From contig OX597815.1 of the NCBI GenBank assembly GCA_951406725.2, forward strand, positions 161,510,001 through 161,574,000: 64,000 bases of DNA. The letters are read 5' to 3'. Both the position numbers and the translations under genes were made by a program. Of the stretch, positions 734-33,879 are shown piece by piece. Every line of letters starts with the position of its first letter. Positions within the stretch are counted from its first letter, which is position 1. This DNA is from Octopus vulgaris (lineage: Eukaryota). A model generated the notes under the pieces. That model saw only the letters and a list, made by a program, of their open reading frames with translations, ran no database searches and had not been told where the DNA came from.

Positions 734-970
734 AAGTTTAATTTGTCAAAATATTTTCATCGCTTTAAAGCACGAATTTTTGTCAGTGAACAGGTCGCAG
801 TCTTAAAGTGACAAAAATATTTTGACAAATTAAACTTAAATGTTGAAGTGAATCAAACGGCTTTTGTGTGTTTCTTAAATGGCTTACAAACACCTTCCAC
901 ATTGCAATTGTTTTCGTTTCAGCACACGATCTCAGATCAAATCACTTGCTATGCAAGTACATCTCCGTAA
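734..970. mobile_element. Small non-autonomous element with partial terminal inversion, inserted in a (TTA)n tract; same family as 32934-33273
   Basis: 734-768 is the reverse complement of 803-838; 770-970 matches 32934-33135 in reverse and 33135-33273 directly; (TTA)n on both sides. Confidence 0.8.
779..829 (+). ncRNA. Hammerhead-like motif, G3-C8 core variant (A at position 12 in this copy)
   Basis: tttgtca GTGAACA g gtcgc-agtcttaaa-gtgac AAAA atat T T tgacaaa: 7-bp stem I, 5-bp stem II, palindromic AATATT stem III. Confidence 0.55.
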
Positions 971-4448: not shown

Positions 4449-5852
4449 CAATCAGGACTCATGCCATTAGCCACAAAGAATAATCTCTAATTTGAGCCTA
4501 CTCTAAGCTACTAAGAATGTGTGTGGCAACTTGAAAATCCACCCACCACACACGATAGACTGACAGTTGCACAGGTGTGAAAGCTACGTTGTTATCCTCA
4601 TTCCATAAACAGTGGCTTTTAAAGGGTGGAGAGCTGAGCCATCCTGGGGTACAGAGGATTCGCAATCTAGACTAGGGTCTGAAAGTTTTACCACACCATA
4701 GTGGGTTACACCATGGTTCCTCTGCTTTGTGGCAGAAGTAGGAAGAAAGAGTGAGAGAAAGTTGTGGTGAAAGAGTACAGCAGGGTTCACCACCACCACC
4801 ACCACCGGAGCCTTGTGGAGCTTAGGTGTTTTTCTCAATAAACACTCACACTGCCAAGACCAGGAATCGAAACCGTGTTCTTATGACTGTGAGCCCGCTG
4901 CCCTAACCACCAGGCCATTGCGCCTCCACAATGTTGGTGTTGTCATCATTGTTATCATCATCAACATCATTATCATTTAATGTTCTTTACTAAGCTAGCA
5001 TAGCTTGAAAGGAGCTGGCAAGCCAGAGATCTATGTTAAGCTTCAGTGTCTGCTATGGCTGGATACCTGTTTTTTCCAAAATATACACACATTAAGTTCT
5101 TTGTTTCCATAATTTATTTCTGTCGCCTGAAAGCTTCAACTGAGCATGAAAGGGTTGGGAAAATTACTTCTTTCTCAAACCATAATTTTTCACTATATAT
5201 CATATATAGATTTACCTTATAACAAAATACCTACTCGTTTTTTTTCCCCTCTTTGCATTATATCACATGCAAACTCAGTAAGAGAAAAAAAGATTGTATC
5301 TGGTAACACTGTGTAACACGAGTTTTGTCCTTGAATAGCAATCGTTATTTTCTATTTGCTTACTCCTAGAAAGTATGAAAAATGGCTAATATTTCCTTCA
5401 GACTTTGCTTTTGTTACATTTATTCAAACCCCAAAGAATCCCTCTTATGTGCCTTCACTTTTAAAGAATGAGAAAGGGTTAAGGAAGCTTTTCTAATAAC
5501 TAAATTGAATTCTACTATCAACAACAGACAGGAGCTGTATCATACCAATAGGTTAACATAACACTACCAATCTATGAATAGTAGAACACTTCAAAACCCC
5601 CACCACTGCCATCTCCATGACCATGTGCTCATAAGATCACCAGATATAGGTTCAATATCCATTTCCTCTTGATGAAGGATTTATGAAACCAAAATGTCAA
5701 AATATATAATGTAAAAGTGCAAGCTGTGACTTTGTTTTGTTGTCTTTTGTTTCCATTCCTGTGTAATTCTAACTCACAATGCAGTGACTTTATAAACCAC
5801 ATTTTCACAATTCTTCATGTAAACTATATTACTTTCATTAGTATGCCCTTAC

Positions 5853-7280: not shown

Positions 7281-7344
7281 TATATTTATACTATAAAATT
7301 GGATTTAATCCTAAATCTAATTTTTCCTTGTAAGTTTGGATTAT

Positions 7345-8475
7345 TGTTGCATCTGTTCTATGTGTGGACAATATTTTAATTTCTATGTTGGTGATTGATC
7401 CCCCGTGTTCCTGTTCGGCGTGTTGGTACATAATCGATGAGCTTTTACCTTCCTTGAGTTATCTCCAATGTTCATTTACCCGCTCTCCTATGCTTCTTGT
7501 CATTTCCCCTACATATGTCGTTGTCTTGTTACTGCATTGTCCCTCTATACATCTTATATTATAGACTACATTTCTGGCTTTACAGTTTGTTTGTGGGCTA
7601 AATCTACATACAGTACAGTACTTATCAGTACAGGGGGTTCTACTAAAAGGATAGGTTCTACCAATTATAGATTTGATAGGGTTGCCTGGCTTTTCAACAA
7701 CCTTAATCCTTAGCTTAAGTTTGTCTAGTGTCCTTCTAAAGCGGTACACCAGTTCACCTCCAGGGGTGGTGTCAATGAACATGACACTCTGGTATTTATG
7801 GCTATCATACCAAGAGTTGGCCTTCCCTATTTTCTTTTTTGTCCTTTCTATAGTGTTCCATGACTTGTTCCTATACAGCGGGCAAATCCCATTCCTATCA
7901 TTACATAATTTATTATCAAATTTCTTCATGGCTCCTTTGTATACTCTGATCCTTTCTTTATAGCTGTAACCTGAGAACTGCATGCGGTGAATGAAATATT
8001 GTATGTGTCTCTTTAACTCTGTAGGCTCACACATGTATGGCACATTTCTCATTATTCTGACGAGGTCTGCCATCAAAATATTGAATTTGGCATTGTCCGC
8101 AGTGGCTGAGTTCCGGTGGATCAAGTATTTTGAGGCCATAGGTTTAGCATAGTATGAATGAAGGATTTGGGTTTTATTATTCACAATTTCTAGCCAGAGT
8201 TCAGTGTCTAGTACTGGTAGTCTATGGTTGGGGTGTTTAGTGGGGTAGTCTATTGTGACCTTAATACTCTGGTGGATGGAGTTAGCTATTTGCTGGATGC
8301 TCTCCATAGTATTAGTTTCTATTACTATATCAACAGTACTCTCTTGTAGGGGTGCCTTTACCACTATGTTGATATCATCAACATAGCGAGAGTACATGTT
8401 TACGAGTATGAAGTTCTGTATTAGGCGTTCTTTAAGCCTTCTGTCCCACCATACCATGAAAAGGTTGGCCACATT
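7345..8475 (-). mobile_element. Penelope-like retroelement, 5'-truncated: RT C-terminal half, thumb, Cys linker and GIY-YIG endonuclease (ORF 7459-8529)
   Basis: YSRYVDD RT motif; LPVLD..YAKP thumb; CxxxxCxxC linker; VVYNIRC..C..YVGEMTRSIGERVNEH GIY-YIG; the frame continues past the stop at 7459 as SSIMYQHAEQEH. Confidence 0.93.
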
Positions 8476-8754
8476 ATTACTAGTATTGTTGTTATACATG
8501 TAATGATAATAATAAAGGGATGTAAACACATGAACAAAATAAGAATAAACAAAAACAACAACAAAAACAAATTACATGAACGTATATAAACAGAAGATAC
8601 AAATATTACAGGCATCCCCCCACACACACACACACTAAATACACATAGACGCACATAGAGATATAAGCATGCGCAAATGAAGACATACAATAGAAATACA
8701 AAATGGCTGACGGTTAGTAAGGAAAGACACACAAATAAGAAAGAAGAAAGCAAA

Positions 8755-8799
8755 GGACCACTGATGCGGTCACAGGAATGTGACGAAAGAACTCTGGCC
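8755..8799 (+). ncRNA. Hammerhead-like motif (C at position 9), antisense to and upstream of the Penelope ORF
   Basis: ggacca CTGATGC g gtcac-aggaat-gtgac GAAA gaac T C tggcc. Confidence 0.65.
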
Positions 8800-9014
8800 G
8801 AAATAAGATTAAGATTAATGTAAAAAATAAATAACACTGAAGCAAAGTAACACCAAATATATAGCGCGTGTGATTTTATTGGCTAAACTGGCAAAATGAC
8901 CATTCCGAAATATAACAATATCTGTTTCAACACACGACTTCACATAAAAAATCTTGCACAACAAATATATAAACGTATATATGTATATATATAATGTGTG
9001 TGTATGTATATATA

Positions 9015-9670
9015 AAACAGGCTGGGTGAATTTCAGAGACCTACTTTTTTTGGTAACAAAGGGTAGATTGAAAGGCAGATTGTATGATGCCTGTGTGCAA
9101 ACAGCCATTCTACATGACGGTGAGACAAGGGTTGTAACTGCAGAGGATATGTGAAGACTTGAAAGAAAAGAAGTTAGTATACTCTGCTGGATGTACAATG
9201 TCAGTGTGCATGTACAACATAGTGTCTTAGAAGAAAGATTGGGTATAAGAGGCATCAGATATATTGTGCAAGAGAGAAGACTGCACTGGTATGGTCATGT
9301 GATGTGTATGGATGAAGACTGCTGCTTAAAGAAGTGATCTCTAACTGTGGAGGGGAACTGTGGAAGTGGTAGATCTTGGAATAGGTGGAATGAGATGGTG
9401 AAATATGATCTTCAAATGTTGTTTCATGGCAGTGATGCCAAGTGACTGAGTCTTTTGGTAATTTGCTGTGCTTGAGAAGACACATCAAGCTTAGTGAAAT
9501 CATAGTTGTGGCCATTACTAGTGACACATTAAATGCACCCATGGTGATGACACGTAAAAGGTACCAAGGTATACTCTGTGGGGTAGTTAGCATTAGGAAG
9601 GACATCCAGCTATAGAAACCAAGCCAAAACAGACTGGAACCTGGTCATCTAACTTATGCCACCATGGAAA
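9015..9670 (+). mobile_element. RTE-clade LINE 3' fragment, decayed
   Basis: KGRLYDACVQTAILHDGET...RLHWYGHVMCM...GRSWNRW C-terminal RTE motifs with stops, followed by the RTE-tail module. Confidence 0.85.
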
Positions 9671-11108: not shown

Positions 11109-11413
11109 CACCGTGATCACCATGACCGACCAGGCTATCAGATATTGCTACACATCGCTTGTCACAATCCACTTTGCATTGTTTTAGCCTTCAAATGATG
11201 CCACCCCACTGGCTAAGCGAGCAGGCCAACAGGAGAGTGAGAGAAAGTTGCAGCGAAAGAGTACAGCAGGGATCGCCACCACCCCCTACTGGAGCCTTGT
11301 GGAGCTTTTAGGTGTTTTTGCTCAATAAACACTCACAATGCCCAGTCTGGGAATTAAAACCGCAATCCTATGACCACGAGTCCGCTGCCCTAACCACTGG
11401 GCCATTGCGCCTC
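11109..11413 (-). mobile_element. tRNA-derived SINE family C with 15-bp TSD
   Basis: Head ggaggcgcaatggcccagtggttagggcagcggactcg; TSD catggtatgttacat at 11094 and 11414; related copies at 4670, 13745, 28505, 40498, 47752, 62395. Confidence 0.85.
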
Positions 11414-11541
11414 CATGGTATGTTACATATACATCATCGTCATCATCATCATCATCATCGTTTAGCGTCCGTTTTAAACAATGATGATGATGATGATGAT
11501 GATGATGTATATGTAACATACCATGGAGGCGCAATGGCCCA
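11397..11541. repeat. Near-perfect hairpin (local inverted duplication)
   Basis: ctgggccattgcgcctccatggtatgttacatatacatcatc... is mirrored at 11475-11541. Confidence 0.92.
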
Positions 11542-15009: not shown

Positions 15010-15627
15010 ACCATCCGTTCGTGGCCGTTTGCCAACCCTGTCTGGCCCCCGTGTCAGTGGCATGTAAAAGCACCATCCGTTCGTGTCCGTTGCCAGCCTC
15101 ACCTGGCCCCCGTGCCGGTGACACGTAAAAGCACCATCCGTTTCATGGCCGTTTGCCAGCTCTGTCTGGCCCCCGTGTTGGTGGCACGTAAAAGCACCAT
15201 CCATTCGTGTTCATTGCCAGCCTCGCCTGGCCCCCATGCCGGTGACACGTAAAAGCACCATCCGTTTCGTGGCCGTTTGCCAGCTCTGTCTGGCCCCCAT
15301 GTTGGTGGCATGTAAAAGCACCATCCATTCATGTCCGTTGCCAGCCTCACCTGGCCCCCGTGCCAGTGACACGTAAAAGCACCATCCGTTTCGTGGCCGT
15401 TTGCCAGCTCTGTCTGGCCCCCGTGTTGGTGGCACGTAAAAGCACCATCCATTCGTGTTCATTGCCAGCCTCGCCTGGCCCCCATGCCGGTGACACGTAA
15501 AAGCACCATCCGTTTCGTGGCCGTTTGCCAGCTCTGTCTGGCCCCCATGTTGGTGGCATGTAAAAGCACCATCCATTCATGTCCGTTGCCAGCCTCGCCT
15601 GGCTCCCGTGCCGGTGACATGTAAAAG
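15010..15627 (+). repeat. Minisatellite of about ten 62-bp units with higher-order periodicity
   Basis: Unit accatcc.ttcgtg.ccgtt(t)gccagc...ctggcccc.gtg..ggtg.cacgtaaaagc; variant pattern recurs at 124 and 248 bp. Confidence 0.93.
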
Positions 15628-23779: not shown

Positions 23780-24600
23780 TTGAATTAATCAAGCATTATC
23801 TTGTAGCTATGAGGTTTCAATGATGTAATTATTTATTTTTAGAATAACATTGTGGAGGTAGGTGTGAGAGGCCAGAGTTGACCAGTTTGAATTAATCATG
23901 CATGATTTTGTAGCTACAAGATTTCAATGAGGTGCTTGTTTATTTTTAGAATGACATTGTGGGGTAAGTGTGAGAGGCCAGATGTGGTTAGTTTGAATTA
24001 ACCATGCAGCTATAAGATTGCAGCTATAATCTTGTGGCTCTAAGATTTCAATGAAGTGATTGTTTATTTTTAGAATGACATTGTAGGTTAAATGTGAGAG
24101 GCCAGATGTGGTTAGTTTGAATTAATCATGCAGCTATAAGATTACAGCTATGATCTTGTGGCTTTAAGATTTCAATGAAGTGATTGTTTATTTTTAGAAT
24201 GACATTGTAGGTTAAGTGTGAGAGGCCAGATGTGGTTAGTTTGAATTAATCATGCAACTATAAGATTGCAGCTATAATCTTGCAGCTATAAGATTTCAAT
24301 GAAGGCGGCGAGCTGGCAGAAACGTTAGCACACTAGGTGAAATGCGTAGCTGTATTTCGTCTGCCGTTATGTTCTGGGTTCAAATTCCGCCGAGGTCGAC
24401 TTTGCCTTTCATCCTTTCGGGGTCGATAAATTAAATACCAGTTACGCGCTGGCGTCGATGTAATCGACTTAATTCCTTTGTCTGTCCTTGCTTGTCCCCT
24501 CTGTGTTTAGCCCCTTGTGGGTAGTAAAGATATATATAAGATTTCAATGAAGTGATTGTTTATTTTTAAAACAACATTGTGTGGCTGGTCTAAGAGGCCA
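23780..24600 (+). repeat. Tandem amplification (about 105-122-bp units) of MITE interior, interrupted by a family B SINE
   Basis: Repeated ttgaattaatcatgca...agatttcaatgaagtgattgtttatttttagaatgacattgtagg...gaggccagatgtgg; SINE 24304-24534 has TSD tataagatttcaatgaa. Confidence 0.85.
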
Positions 24601-32247: not shown

Positions 32248-32365
32248 GTTTATGGCCATATCACGTTGAATGTACCGGTTCTCAACCAATCACCGAAGTC
32301 AAACAACTTTAAACCTAGTGAGTACTTAGATAGGTGACCGTTGAGAAACCTAGGTGCTGGAAGCA
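32248..32365 (+). pseudogene. 5S rRNA pseudogene
   Basis: gtttatggccatatcacgttgaa..accggttctc..atcaccgaagtcaa..agtacttagataggtgaccg..ggtgctg aligns with the full length of 5S; many substitutions; A-rich 3' flank and no T-run terminator. Confidence 0.88.
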
Positions 32366-33073
32366 TGGAAAAAATAAAAGGATTAATAAAAATTAATCAA
32401 TATAGGTGCAGGAGTGGCTGTGTGGTAAGTAACTTGCTTACCAACCACATGGTTCCGGGTTCAGTCCCACTGCGTGGCACCTTGGGCAAGTGTCTTCTAC
32501 TATAGCCTTGGGCTGACCAAAGCCTTGTGGGTGGATTTGTTATATATATATATATATATATATATAATAATAAGAGTAAATAATTCCTATAATGGTTTTT
32601 AAAAAACCAACAATTATTTACTGGTAGAATTCGGCATGTAAATATAACCGATTAACGGTAGGAACTTCTGTAAAGTTCAGTATATATATTGTATATAAAT
32701 AAATGGGGCAGGCAACAGGTTGCTTGGCCGCATACCGAAAAGCTAGAAATAGCAGTCAAGACTGTTTATTTCTATTTTCTACAAGTGGGACTCCACATAC
32801 GACATATCCCTGTAATTCACATATGCAAAACAGAAGGAATAAATAACAAAAACAAAGTCTGACGGTCATTTGCGAACATGTTTCTAGATTATAAATATAT
32901 TGAATATATATTTCATATATATTTTGAATATATTATGGAGATGTACTTGCATAGCAAGTGATTTGATCTGAGATCGTGTGCTGGAACGAAAACAATTGCA
33001 GCGTGGAAGGTGTTTGTAAGCCATTTAAGAAACACACAAAAGCCGTTCGATTCACTTCAACATTTAAGTTTAA

Positions 33074-33124
33074 TTTGTCAAAATATTTTTGTCACTTTAA
33101 GACCGCGACCTGTTCACTGACAAA
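33074..33124 (-). ncRNA. Hammerhead-like G3-C8 variant, copy 2
   Basis: tttgtca GTGAACA g gtcgc-ggtcttaaa-gtgac AAAA atat TT tgacaaa. Confidence 0.55.
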
Positions 33125-33143
33125 AATCCGTGCTGCACGGATT

Positions 33144-33193
33144 TTTGTCAGTGAACAGGTCGCGGATTTTTGCGACAAAAATATTTTGACAAA
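33144..33193 (+). ncRNA. Hammerhead-like G3-C8 variant, copy 3
   Basis: tttgtca GTGAACA g gtcgc-ggattttt-gcgac AAAA atat TT tgacaaa; perfect stem II with a different loop. Confidence 0.55.
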
Positions 33194-33879
33194 TTAAACT
33201 TAAATGTTGAAGTGAATCGAACGGCTTTTGTGTGTTTCTTAAATGGCTTACAAACACCTTCCACGCTGCAATTATTTGAATATATATTTCATATATATTA
33301 CATTTATATATTACTATTTATATATTACTATTTCTAACTTTTCGGTATACGGCCAAGCAATCTGTTGCCTGCCCCTTTTATTTATATATATATGTTGGGG
33401 ATATATATATATATGTATGTATGTGTGTGTATATGTTTGCATGTCTGTGTTTGTCCCCCCAACATCGCTTGACAACTGATGCAGTGTGTTCACATCCCCG
33501 TAACTTAGCAGTTTAGCAAAAGAGATTGATAGAGTTAGTACTAGGCTTACAAAGAATAAGTCCTGGGGCCGATTTGCTCGACTAAAGGTGGTGCTCCATC
33601 ATGGCCGCAGTCAAATGACTGAAACAAGTAAAAGAGTAAAAGAGTAAAGACAAAGTTATTTATATTTTTCATCTTTTACTTGTTTCAGTCATTAGACTGC
33701 AGCCATGCTTGGGCACTGCTTTGAAGTATTTTTATCAAATGACTTGACCCCAGTACTAACTATTATTTTGTAAAGCCTGGCGTTTAGTCTATTGGTCACT
33801 TTTGCCCAACTGCTAGGTTGCAGGGATGTAAACACACCAAGCAGTGGTACAACACAAACACAGACATAAAGAGACACAG

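What the first reader, a model, noticed from the sequence alone, without database searches (positions are those of the whole stretch)
734..970. G3-C8 hammerhead variant family (GUGAACA core)
Three full copies (779 +, 33074 -, 33144 +) keep a 7-bp stem I, a 5-bp stem II whose loop varies while pairing is retained (gcgac or gtgac), and a palindromic AATATT stem III. All three have A at the catalytic G12 position. The partial inverted copy at 741-768 reads gcgatGAAAatattttgacaaa on the minus strand, so G12 exists in the family and the A could be CpG decay (cg to ca). Either these are dead copies of an active swapped-core ribozyme, or an A12 subfamily amplified without cleavage.
Basis: partly seen in the sequence, partly recalled or inferred. 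Interest (0 to 1): 0.8.

Follow-up and report, generated by a model that had tools for sequence, protein, structure and literature searches.

The report
Swapped-core hammerhead in octopus retroelement
This is the clipped end of a very common octopus jumping gene whose hammerhead-shaped RNA motif has two paired core letters swapped across thousands of copies; the family form likely still cuts itself weakly, while the three copies here carry an extra, likely methylation-caused change and are predicted to be dead.

Summary
The motif is real. It sits in the pseudo-LTR of a Penelope-like retroelement (RT + C-terminal GIY-YIG), 56 nt before the ORF start; the window copies are 5'-truncated tips of that element. 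The family has G12, not A12: 67 of 74 copies sampled by their tail carry G12, and A12 (7) occurs at the rate of neighbouring CpG transitions, in copies with about four-fold more CpG decay. The 'A12 subfamily' branch is refuted. G3-C8 is the family consensus (at least 5,923 motif matches) and is shared by an older sister family; related families in the same genome, one copy inside this window, carry C3-G8, U3.G8, U3-A8 or C3.A8 at the homologous place, with compensated stems. In published mutagenesis G3-C8 is the one double change in this loop that rescues cleavage; my searches found no natural G3-C8 in print. Cleavage is not shown: copies derive from uncut RNA (no 5'-end pile-up at the cut site), and relatives with damaged cores also spread. 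New variant of a known kind. This scan reported the same family at least six times on other DNA of this genome.

The parts
734..768 (-). Short inverted arm of insertion 1 (3' half of the hammerhead, G12 kept, C11.1>T)
769..970 (+). Direct arm of insertion 1: 5'-truncated tip of the Penelope-like element (pLTR end, hammerhead, first 92 nt of ORF), between (TAT)n tracts 649-734 and 971-1016
   Evidence: 90% identical to full-length copy L198; tandem repeats
779..829 (+). Hammerhead copy 1: stem I 779-785/823-829, G3 786, C8 791, extra G 793, stem II 794-798/808-812, A12 813, AATATT 816-821, U17 822; predicted cut 822/823
879..970 (+). First 92 nt of the element's ORF (ATG at 879); short 3' end near 910, long 'tail' end at 970
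   Evidence: full-length copies L196-L198 continue in frame past this point; two ends 60 nt apart
32933..33134 (-). Long arm of insertion 2 with tail; hammerhead 33074-33124, A12
   Evidence: (L016)
33135..33273 (+). Short inverted arm of insertion 2; hammerhead 33144-33193 (G3 33151, C8 33156, A12 33177), loop II of another subfamily than the long arm
32900..33299 (.). AT-rich flank duplication around insertion 2 (24 nt at 32900-32923 and 33276-33299)
7329..8993 (.). Insertion of the sister Penelope-like family (family C): RT/EN fragment on minus (7329-8474), pLTR on plus (8498-8993) with the homologous hammerhead, core CTGATGC starting at 8761 (C3-G8, C at 9, C17)

Best explanation
The feature is the truncated 3' tip of an abundant octopus Penelope-like retroelement whose minimal type I hammerhead motif carries G3-C8 instead of C3-G8 family-wide; the G12 family form likely self-cleaves only weakly (predicted to need a dimer through its palindromic helix III or the element's protein), and the three window copies are predicted dead because a likely methyl-CpG transition turned G12 into A after insertion. 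Shown: element anatomy, homology of the motif to C3-G8 motifs of sister families, G12 consensus, neutral CpG-level A12, insertion into AT-rich/(TA)n targets with inverted arm and 60-nt tail, and that the sampled copies were mostly made from RNA that still held the whole motif. Inferred: target-primed reverse transcription starting at two sites inside the ORF start (as in the anole element PAc), selection for the 3:8 pair, and cleavage after UUU.
For: Full-length element: hammerhead - ORF start - RT/GIY-YIG - 947-nt 3' region - second hammerhead, unit 4,261 bp (L198); 999-aa open frame with RT motifs, CX3CxxC linker, GIY-YIG above Pfam cut-off. G3 62 of 65, C8 63 of 69, G12 67 of 74 in 100 tail-selected copies; A12 rate equals that of three neighbouring CpG guanines (21 of 208; Fisher p=1.0); A12 copies have 0.51 other-CpG decay vs 0.14 in G12 copies (n=5 vs 59, p=0.002) and the window is CpG-poor (o/e 0.33, below 97% of 308 fetched loci). 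Sister family with 57% protein identity has C3-G8 at the same place; G3-C8 families A and B form one clade (support 0.945); stems I and II change in compensated pairs and helix III stays palindromic in A and B (AAUAUU, AAUU). C3G/G8C is the only rescuing double change in the CUGA region in a full double-mutant scan (PMC9901934) and partly rescues a PLE hammerhead (PMC11167929). Both G3 families have U17, avoiding a G3-C17 pair.
Against: No cleavage data. No pile-up of 5' ends at the cut site: 4 of 100 direct arms within 3 nt (about 1.7 expected, p~0.10; the 2 exact ones use stem I microhomology) and 0 of 51 inverted arms. The swap is one evolutionary event, and A and B are 76% alike, so its retention alone is weak evidence. 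Damaged cores also spread: the youngest sister subfamily has C at 9 (81 of first 100), a G3.G8 group forms separate insertions on C16, family E has U3.G8 (30) and C3.A8 (14) of 69. ViennaRNA pairs G3 with U17 on top of stem I, a possible inhibitory fold; the isolated AAUAUU duplex is marginal (-0.2 kcal/mol; -4.6 for the longer cofold). Search patterns fixed the other core bases, so their conservation across families is partly built in.
Confidence: 0.68

Rival explanations
1. Hammerhead relic kept for its fold: the motif descends from a ribozyme but no longer cuts; stems are kept for protein binding, template structure or RNA pairing, and G3-C8 arose by drift through mismatched intermediates.
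For: Copies come from uncut RNA; A9>C, G3.G8, U3.G8 and C3.A8 cores amplified in relatives; cleavage was dispensable for insertion in PAc in vitro (PMC11167929).
Against: The two transversions are exactly the complementary pair that rescues activity; G12, A13, A14, A15.1-U16.1 and H17 are kept in the family master; no family-A copy among 19 with C3 has G8 and 97 of 100 G8 copies keep G3, so single changes are scattered, not fixed.
Confidence: 0.26
2. An A12 subfamily amplified without cleavage.
For: All three full window copies have A12.
Against: A12 is 7 of 74 and 5 of 100, equal to other CpG sites, tied to general CpG decay; the three window arms belong to different loop subfamilies; full-length copies have G12.
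Confidence: 0.02
3. Chance likeness: a palindromic MITE-like or SINE-like repeat that only resembles a hammerhead.
For: No Rfam hammerhead hit; inverted-repeat appearance of insertion 2.
Against: The motif lies in the pLTR of an RT/GIY-YIG element and aligns with canonical CUGAUGA/CUGAAGA motifs of sister families; arms are unequal, 5'-truncated at many points, with a one-sided tail.
Confidence: 0.02

Closest known systems
Minimal type I hammerheads (min-HHR) in pseudo-LTRs of metazoan Penelope-like elements (Cervera and de la Pena 2014, PMC4209133)
   Same: Position in the pLTR; type I topology; extra nucleotide between 9 and 10.1; G10.1-C11.1; palindromic helix III; U-rich 5' and AU-rich 3' flank; thousands of dispersed solo and opposite-strand copies.
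   Different: G3-C8 instead of C3-G8 (the paper reports U3-A8 as the covariant); extra nucleotide is G where the paper's consensus has H; U17; 7-bp stem I.
PAc (Poseidon of Anolis carolinensis; Frangieh et al. 2024, PMC11167929)
   Same: Hammerhead at the pLTR-ORF junction; two 3' ends inside the ORF start forming a tail; AT-rich targets; copies made from unprocessed RNA.
   Different: There C3G/G8C is an engineered rescue, here the natural state; tail 60 nt; ORF starts 56 nt after the cut site; the protein has a CX3CxxC linker (Neptune/Nematis-type) that Penelope/Poseidon lacks.
Neptune/Nematis-type EN+ PLEs (Craig et al. 2021, PMC8557442)
   Same: C-terminal GIY-YIG with CCHH-like residues, Zn-finger-like linker, (TA)n targets, 5' truncation, inverted upstream copy, tail.
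   Different: Clade not placed by a tree with named references; DKG reads DKS.
Natural 3:8 covariant hammerheads (Perreault et al. 2011, PMC3088659)
   Same: Both bases of the 3:8 tertiary pair change together.
   Different: Reported natural covariant is U3-A8 (two transitions); here a purine/pyrimidine swap (two transversions).

Membership tests
EN+ Penelope-like elements | Single ORF with PLE-type RT and C-terminal GIY-YIG | tested here: met
   999-aa frame in L195 with RT motifs and PF01541 above cut-off; no copy with a wholly unbroken ORF among the 4 long family-A copies read
EN+ Penelope-like elements | Pseudo-LTR from partial tandem; inverted 5'-truncated copy; one-sided tail | tested here: met
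   L198 layout; 50 of 100 with inverted arm; two 3' ends 60 nt apart
EN+ Penelope-like elements | AT-rich or (TA)n targets | tested here: met
   61 of 100 tails followed by TATA; flank duplications of 8 nt or more in 11 of 22 non-microsatellite sites
Neptune/Nematis clades | CX2-5CxxC linker and CCHH in EN; phylogenetic placement | tested here: inconclusive
   Motifs read from the translation against definitions in PMC8557442; no tree with named references
Hydra clade | CCHH absent, CxCX5C linker, DKT | tested here: not met
PLE min-HHR (type I hammerhead) | Stems I and II around the core, G10.1-C11.1, extra nucleotide after 9, palindromic helix III, NUH site | tested here: met
PLE min-HHR (type I hammerhead) | Core letters CUGANGA | tested here: not met
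   GUGAACA in the family (G3 62 of 65, C8 63 of 69); no Rfam hit
PLE min-HHR (type I hammerhead) | Watson-Crick 3:8 pair and G12 | tested here: met
   Family state G3-C8, G12; not met by the three window copies (A12)
Hammerhead ribozymes | Site-specific self-cleavage after N17 | not testable with these tools
   No assay; 5'-end distribution gives no sign
Non-LTR retrozymes | Tandem non-coding units each with a type I hammerhead | tested here: not met
   Window copies are solo/inverted insertions; a 166-bp tandem array of the same motif exists elsewhere (L056-L060)

The most novel reading that the evidence does not exclude
A naturally evolved, functional G3-C8 hammerhead: one ancestral swap, kept through two successive octopus PLE families together with U17 (which avoids a G3-C17 trap), inside a clade that samples every 3:8 geometry (C-G, U.G, U-A, C.A, G-C). 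Because CUGANGA descriptors and Rfam miss it, swapped cores may hide in elements now scored as lacking hammerheads.
Probability: 0.5. Interest if true: 0.58.

Novelty: new variant of a known kind. Interest (0 to 1): 0.42.

Why it matters
G8 sits at the catalytic centre of the best-studied small ribozyme, and the G3-C8 swap is known as a laboratory rescue; a thousands-copy natural version with matched C3-G8 sisters gives a ready panel for testing whether PLE hammerheads are selected for cutting, for weak cutting, or only for their fold, which is an open question. It also shows a blind spot of standard searches. The host element and the presence of a hammerhead in it are expected, and the window copies themselves are ordinary decayed repeats.

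Tried and rejected
Rfam scan: no hammerhead family among 112 matches. Within-family compensation: none; 97 of first 100 of 186 G8 copies keep G3, 19 of 19 family-A C3 copies keep C8. 5'-end pile-up at the cut site: not found. Intron reading of the upstream ACTAAC...TTTCTCAG: no spliced exon found, no GAG|GT donor in the 947-nt region of L198; left open. Idea that the two arms usually come from two templates: only 2 of 31 scored pairs differed in loop length class, one of them by a deletion, though five mixed cases are visible by eye; not used as support. Metagenome scan with the EN region: 77 pattern hits, 0 confirmed. PDB sequence search: 0 hits. Sequencing runs: no RNA holder listed; contigs of four runs of guessed type cover the motif without a listed variant at 3, 8 or 12 but cannot show ends, strand or expression; distribution across octopus species is left open. 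Alignment A2 had two mis-specified rows and was not used for counts. Lunse et al. 2017, Przybilski and Hammann 2007 and Nelson and Uhlenbeck 2008 were seen only as reference entries; Lunse et al. lists about 150,000 PLE hammerhead variants (recalled) and could contain G3-C8.

Full report
Observation. The three full motifs and the partial inverted arm are as described. Copy 1 reads stem I 779-785/823-829, core G3-U-G-A-A-C8-A9 786-792, an extra G, stem II 794-798/808-812, A at 12 (813), AA, AATATT, U17 (822). Stems I and II are the predicted fold of all three. Rfam finds no hammerhead among 112 matches at E<=1. The window is G000:C2:161,510,001-161,574,000 of a 2.8-Gb genome; a protein labelled Octopus vulgaris by its source matches G000 at up to 100%, so the host is an octopus.

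Position 12. The exact 51-nt G12 form occurs 405 times, control 0. With 8 and 12 free there are 5,923 matches; the first 100 listed have G12 94, A 5, T 1 and C8 94, G 4, T 1, A 1 (counted by hand). To avoid selecting on the motif I took all 100 listed places (of 3,823) of a search for the element's 3' end. Among copies covering each site: G3 62 of 65, C8 63 of 69, G12 67 of 74 with 7 A. G12 follows C11.1, a CpG; three neighbouring CpG guanines show A in 6 of 69, 8 of 70 and 7 of 73, the same rate (Fisher p=1.0). A12 copies have 0.51 of their other CpGs decayed against 0.14 for G12 copies (5 vs 59 copies with at least 6 sites, p=0.002), and the window has CpG o/e 0.33, lower than 97% of 308 fetched loci (those loci are shorter, chosen for young repeats and not independent). 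So three A12 copies in one window are best read as local methylation-driven decay (inference). G12 is the general base (PMC6155905, PMC8495972, passages), so these copies are predicted inactive.

The element. Copies are 5'-truncated at many points and share a 3' end. [quoted passage not shown] In L196-L198 the 'tail' continues in frame into the ORF: L198 has a hammerhead at 5240, ATG at 5334 and a second hammerhead at 9501. The window's 879-970 is thus the first 92 nt of the ORF. Half of the sampled insertions (50 of 100) have an inverted arm upstream, which mostly ends about 60 nt short of the long end; 61 of 100 tails run into TATA; 11 of 22 other sites show flank duplications of 8 nt or more. 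This is the described structure of EN+ Penelope-like elements (PMC8557442, passages and section 11) and matches the two internal RT start sites of PAc (PMC11167929, parts 1-2 of 4). The CX3CxxC linker and CCHH-like residues point to Neptune/Nematis type; no named tree was built. None of the 4 long family-A copies read has an unbroken ORF; L195 holds 999 open codons.

The swap. A sister family with 57% protein identity and many intact frames has the homologous motif before a homologous ORF start; one copy lies in this window at 8761. A pattern fixing C3 finds 4,592 matches; 99 of the first 100 have G8. Further searches gave five groups whose majority motifs are A GUGAACA, B GUGACCA, C CUGAUGA (young copies CUGAUGC), D CUGAAGA, E UUGAUGA. 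In a tree of 78 hand-picked rows (motif plus 170 nt; one chosen row, L112, dropped out by pattern) A and B form a clade with support 0.945, so G3-C8 arose once and was kept while loop II, N7 and helix III changed (AAUAUU in A, AAUU in B, both palindromic, both followed by U17). Stem II changes G-C to A-U between A and C, and stem I runs U-A, U.G, C-G within A and between families. Within A there is no second compensation: G8 copies keep G3 (97 of first 100 of 186) and C3 copies keep C8 (19 of 19). In a complete double-mutant scan the G:C swap was the only rescue in the CUGA region (PMC9901934, passages), and C3G/G8C partly restores a PLE hammerhead, which needs the protein to cut. That the natural change is exactly this pair is the main reason to think it was selected. 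A G3-C8 variant was noted to work less well with C17 than G17 (PMC3884650, passage, data not shown there), which fits U17 in both G3 families (inference).

Against activity. If cut RNA were a main template, copies should start at the cut site. They do not: 39 of 100 start within -5 to +3 of the ATGCAG that lies 58 nt upstream of the site, 11 further upstream, 4 within 3 nt of the site (p~0.10), and 0 of 51 inverted arms. Relatives with impaired-looking cores spread well: C at 9 in 81 of the first 100 sister copies, a G3.G8 group with different flanks on C16, and in the 69 matches with a 5-nt loop U3.G8 30, C3.A8 14, C3-G8 9, U3-A8 5, other 11 (counted by hand). The folding model adds a G3.U17 pair. 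The swap is a single event and A and B are 76% alike. The search patterns fixed the remaining core bases. Hence weak, dimer- or protein-assisted cleavage that is not needed for each insertion is my reading (0.68), a fold-only relic the main rival (0.26).

5' ends. The pile-up sits at a sequence that looks both like a branch point plus 3' splice site and like an initiator. In copies that stop there, the base before AGATG is G in 27 of 38, where the element has C (some are templated by the inverted arm). A copied cap on a transcript starting at that A would explain it (inference, untested); no upstream exon was found.

What is known. Minimal hammerheads in PLE pseudo-LTRs, the extra nucleotide, palindromic helix III, low dimer activity and a U3-A8 variant are in PMC4209133 (parts 1-2 of 4, and a term search of one of two supplement files; the other could not be searched). 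Natural 3:8 covariation to U3-A8 is in PMC3088659 (section 8 and passages). Searches for a natural G3-C8 (supplement search of PMC8557442) found only engineered cases. The library lacks most subscription papers; Lunse et al. 2017 was seen only as a reference entry and could hold such variants. The 2026 retrozyme preprint (part 1 of 5 and passages) does not mention octopus. Earlier notes of this scan describe the same family six times in this genome and G3-C8 candidates in two other genomes; they are not independent evidence.

Verdict. Real, a new variant of a known kind, activity untested; the window copies are decayed. Interest 0.42.

Noticed in passing
window 7329-8993: Insertion of the sister Penelope-like family with a 370-aa RT/EN fragment and a hammerhead whose core reads CTGATGC (A9>C); this A9>C form dominates the young, intact-ORF subfamily.
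   Followed up: partly
G000:C2:17,908,264-17,912,966 (L056-L060): Tandem array of 166-bp units each with the G3-C8 motif and G12, a retrozyme-like arrangement in which dimers could form in one transcript; good assay template.
   Followed up: no
G000:C16 about 1.6-6.9 Mb (L200, L201, L203, L204): Cluster of G3.G8 copies with loop GGTCTGAAA and different flanks.
   Followed up: partly
window 32933-33273; L032, L033, L052, L053: The two arms of one insertion come from different loop-II subfamilies, suggesting two template RNAs in some events.
   Followed up: partly
L134 about 8935-8965; L198 about 5195-5225: ACTAAC...TTTCTCAG just upstream of the motif looks like a branch point and 3' splice site; most short copies begin here, often with an extra G.
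   Followed up: partly
L340, L343, L348, L375, L383-L407: Old related family with mixed U3.G8, C3.A8, U3-A8 and C3-G8 cores.
   Followed up: partly
window 32248-32365 (+): 5S rRNA-like sequence above Rfam gathering score (68.6 bits vs 38), next to a common SINE-like repeat; probably a pseudogene.
   Followed up: no
window 11403-11536: Near-perfect 130-nt palindrome built around (ATG)n/(CAT)n.
   Followed up: no
window 15010-15627 and 23908-24304: Two unrelated 124-bp tandem arrays.
   Followed up: no
L202 8330-9376 (-): 349-aa frame of another, different Penelope-like RT/EN element near a family-A fragment.
   Followed up: no
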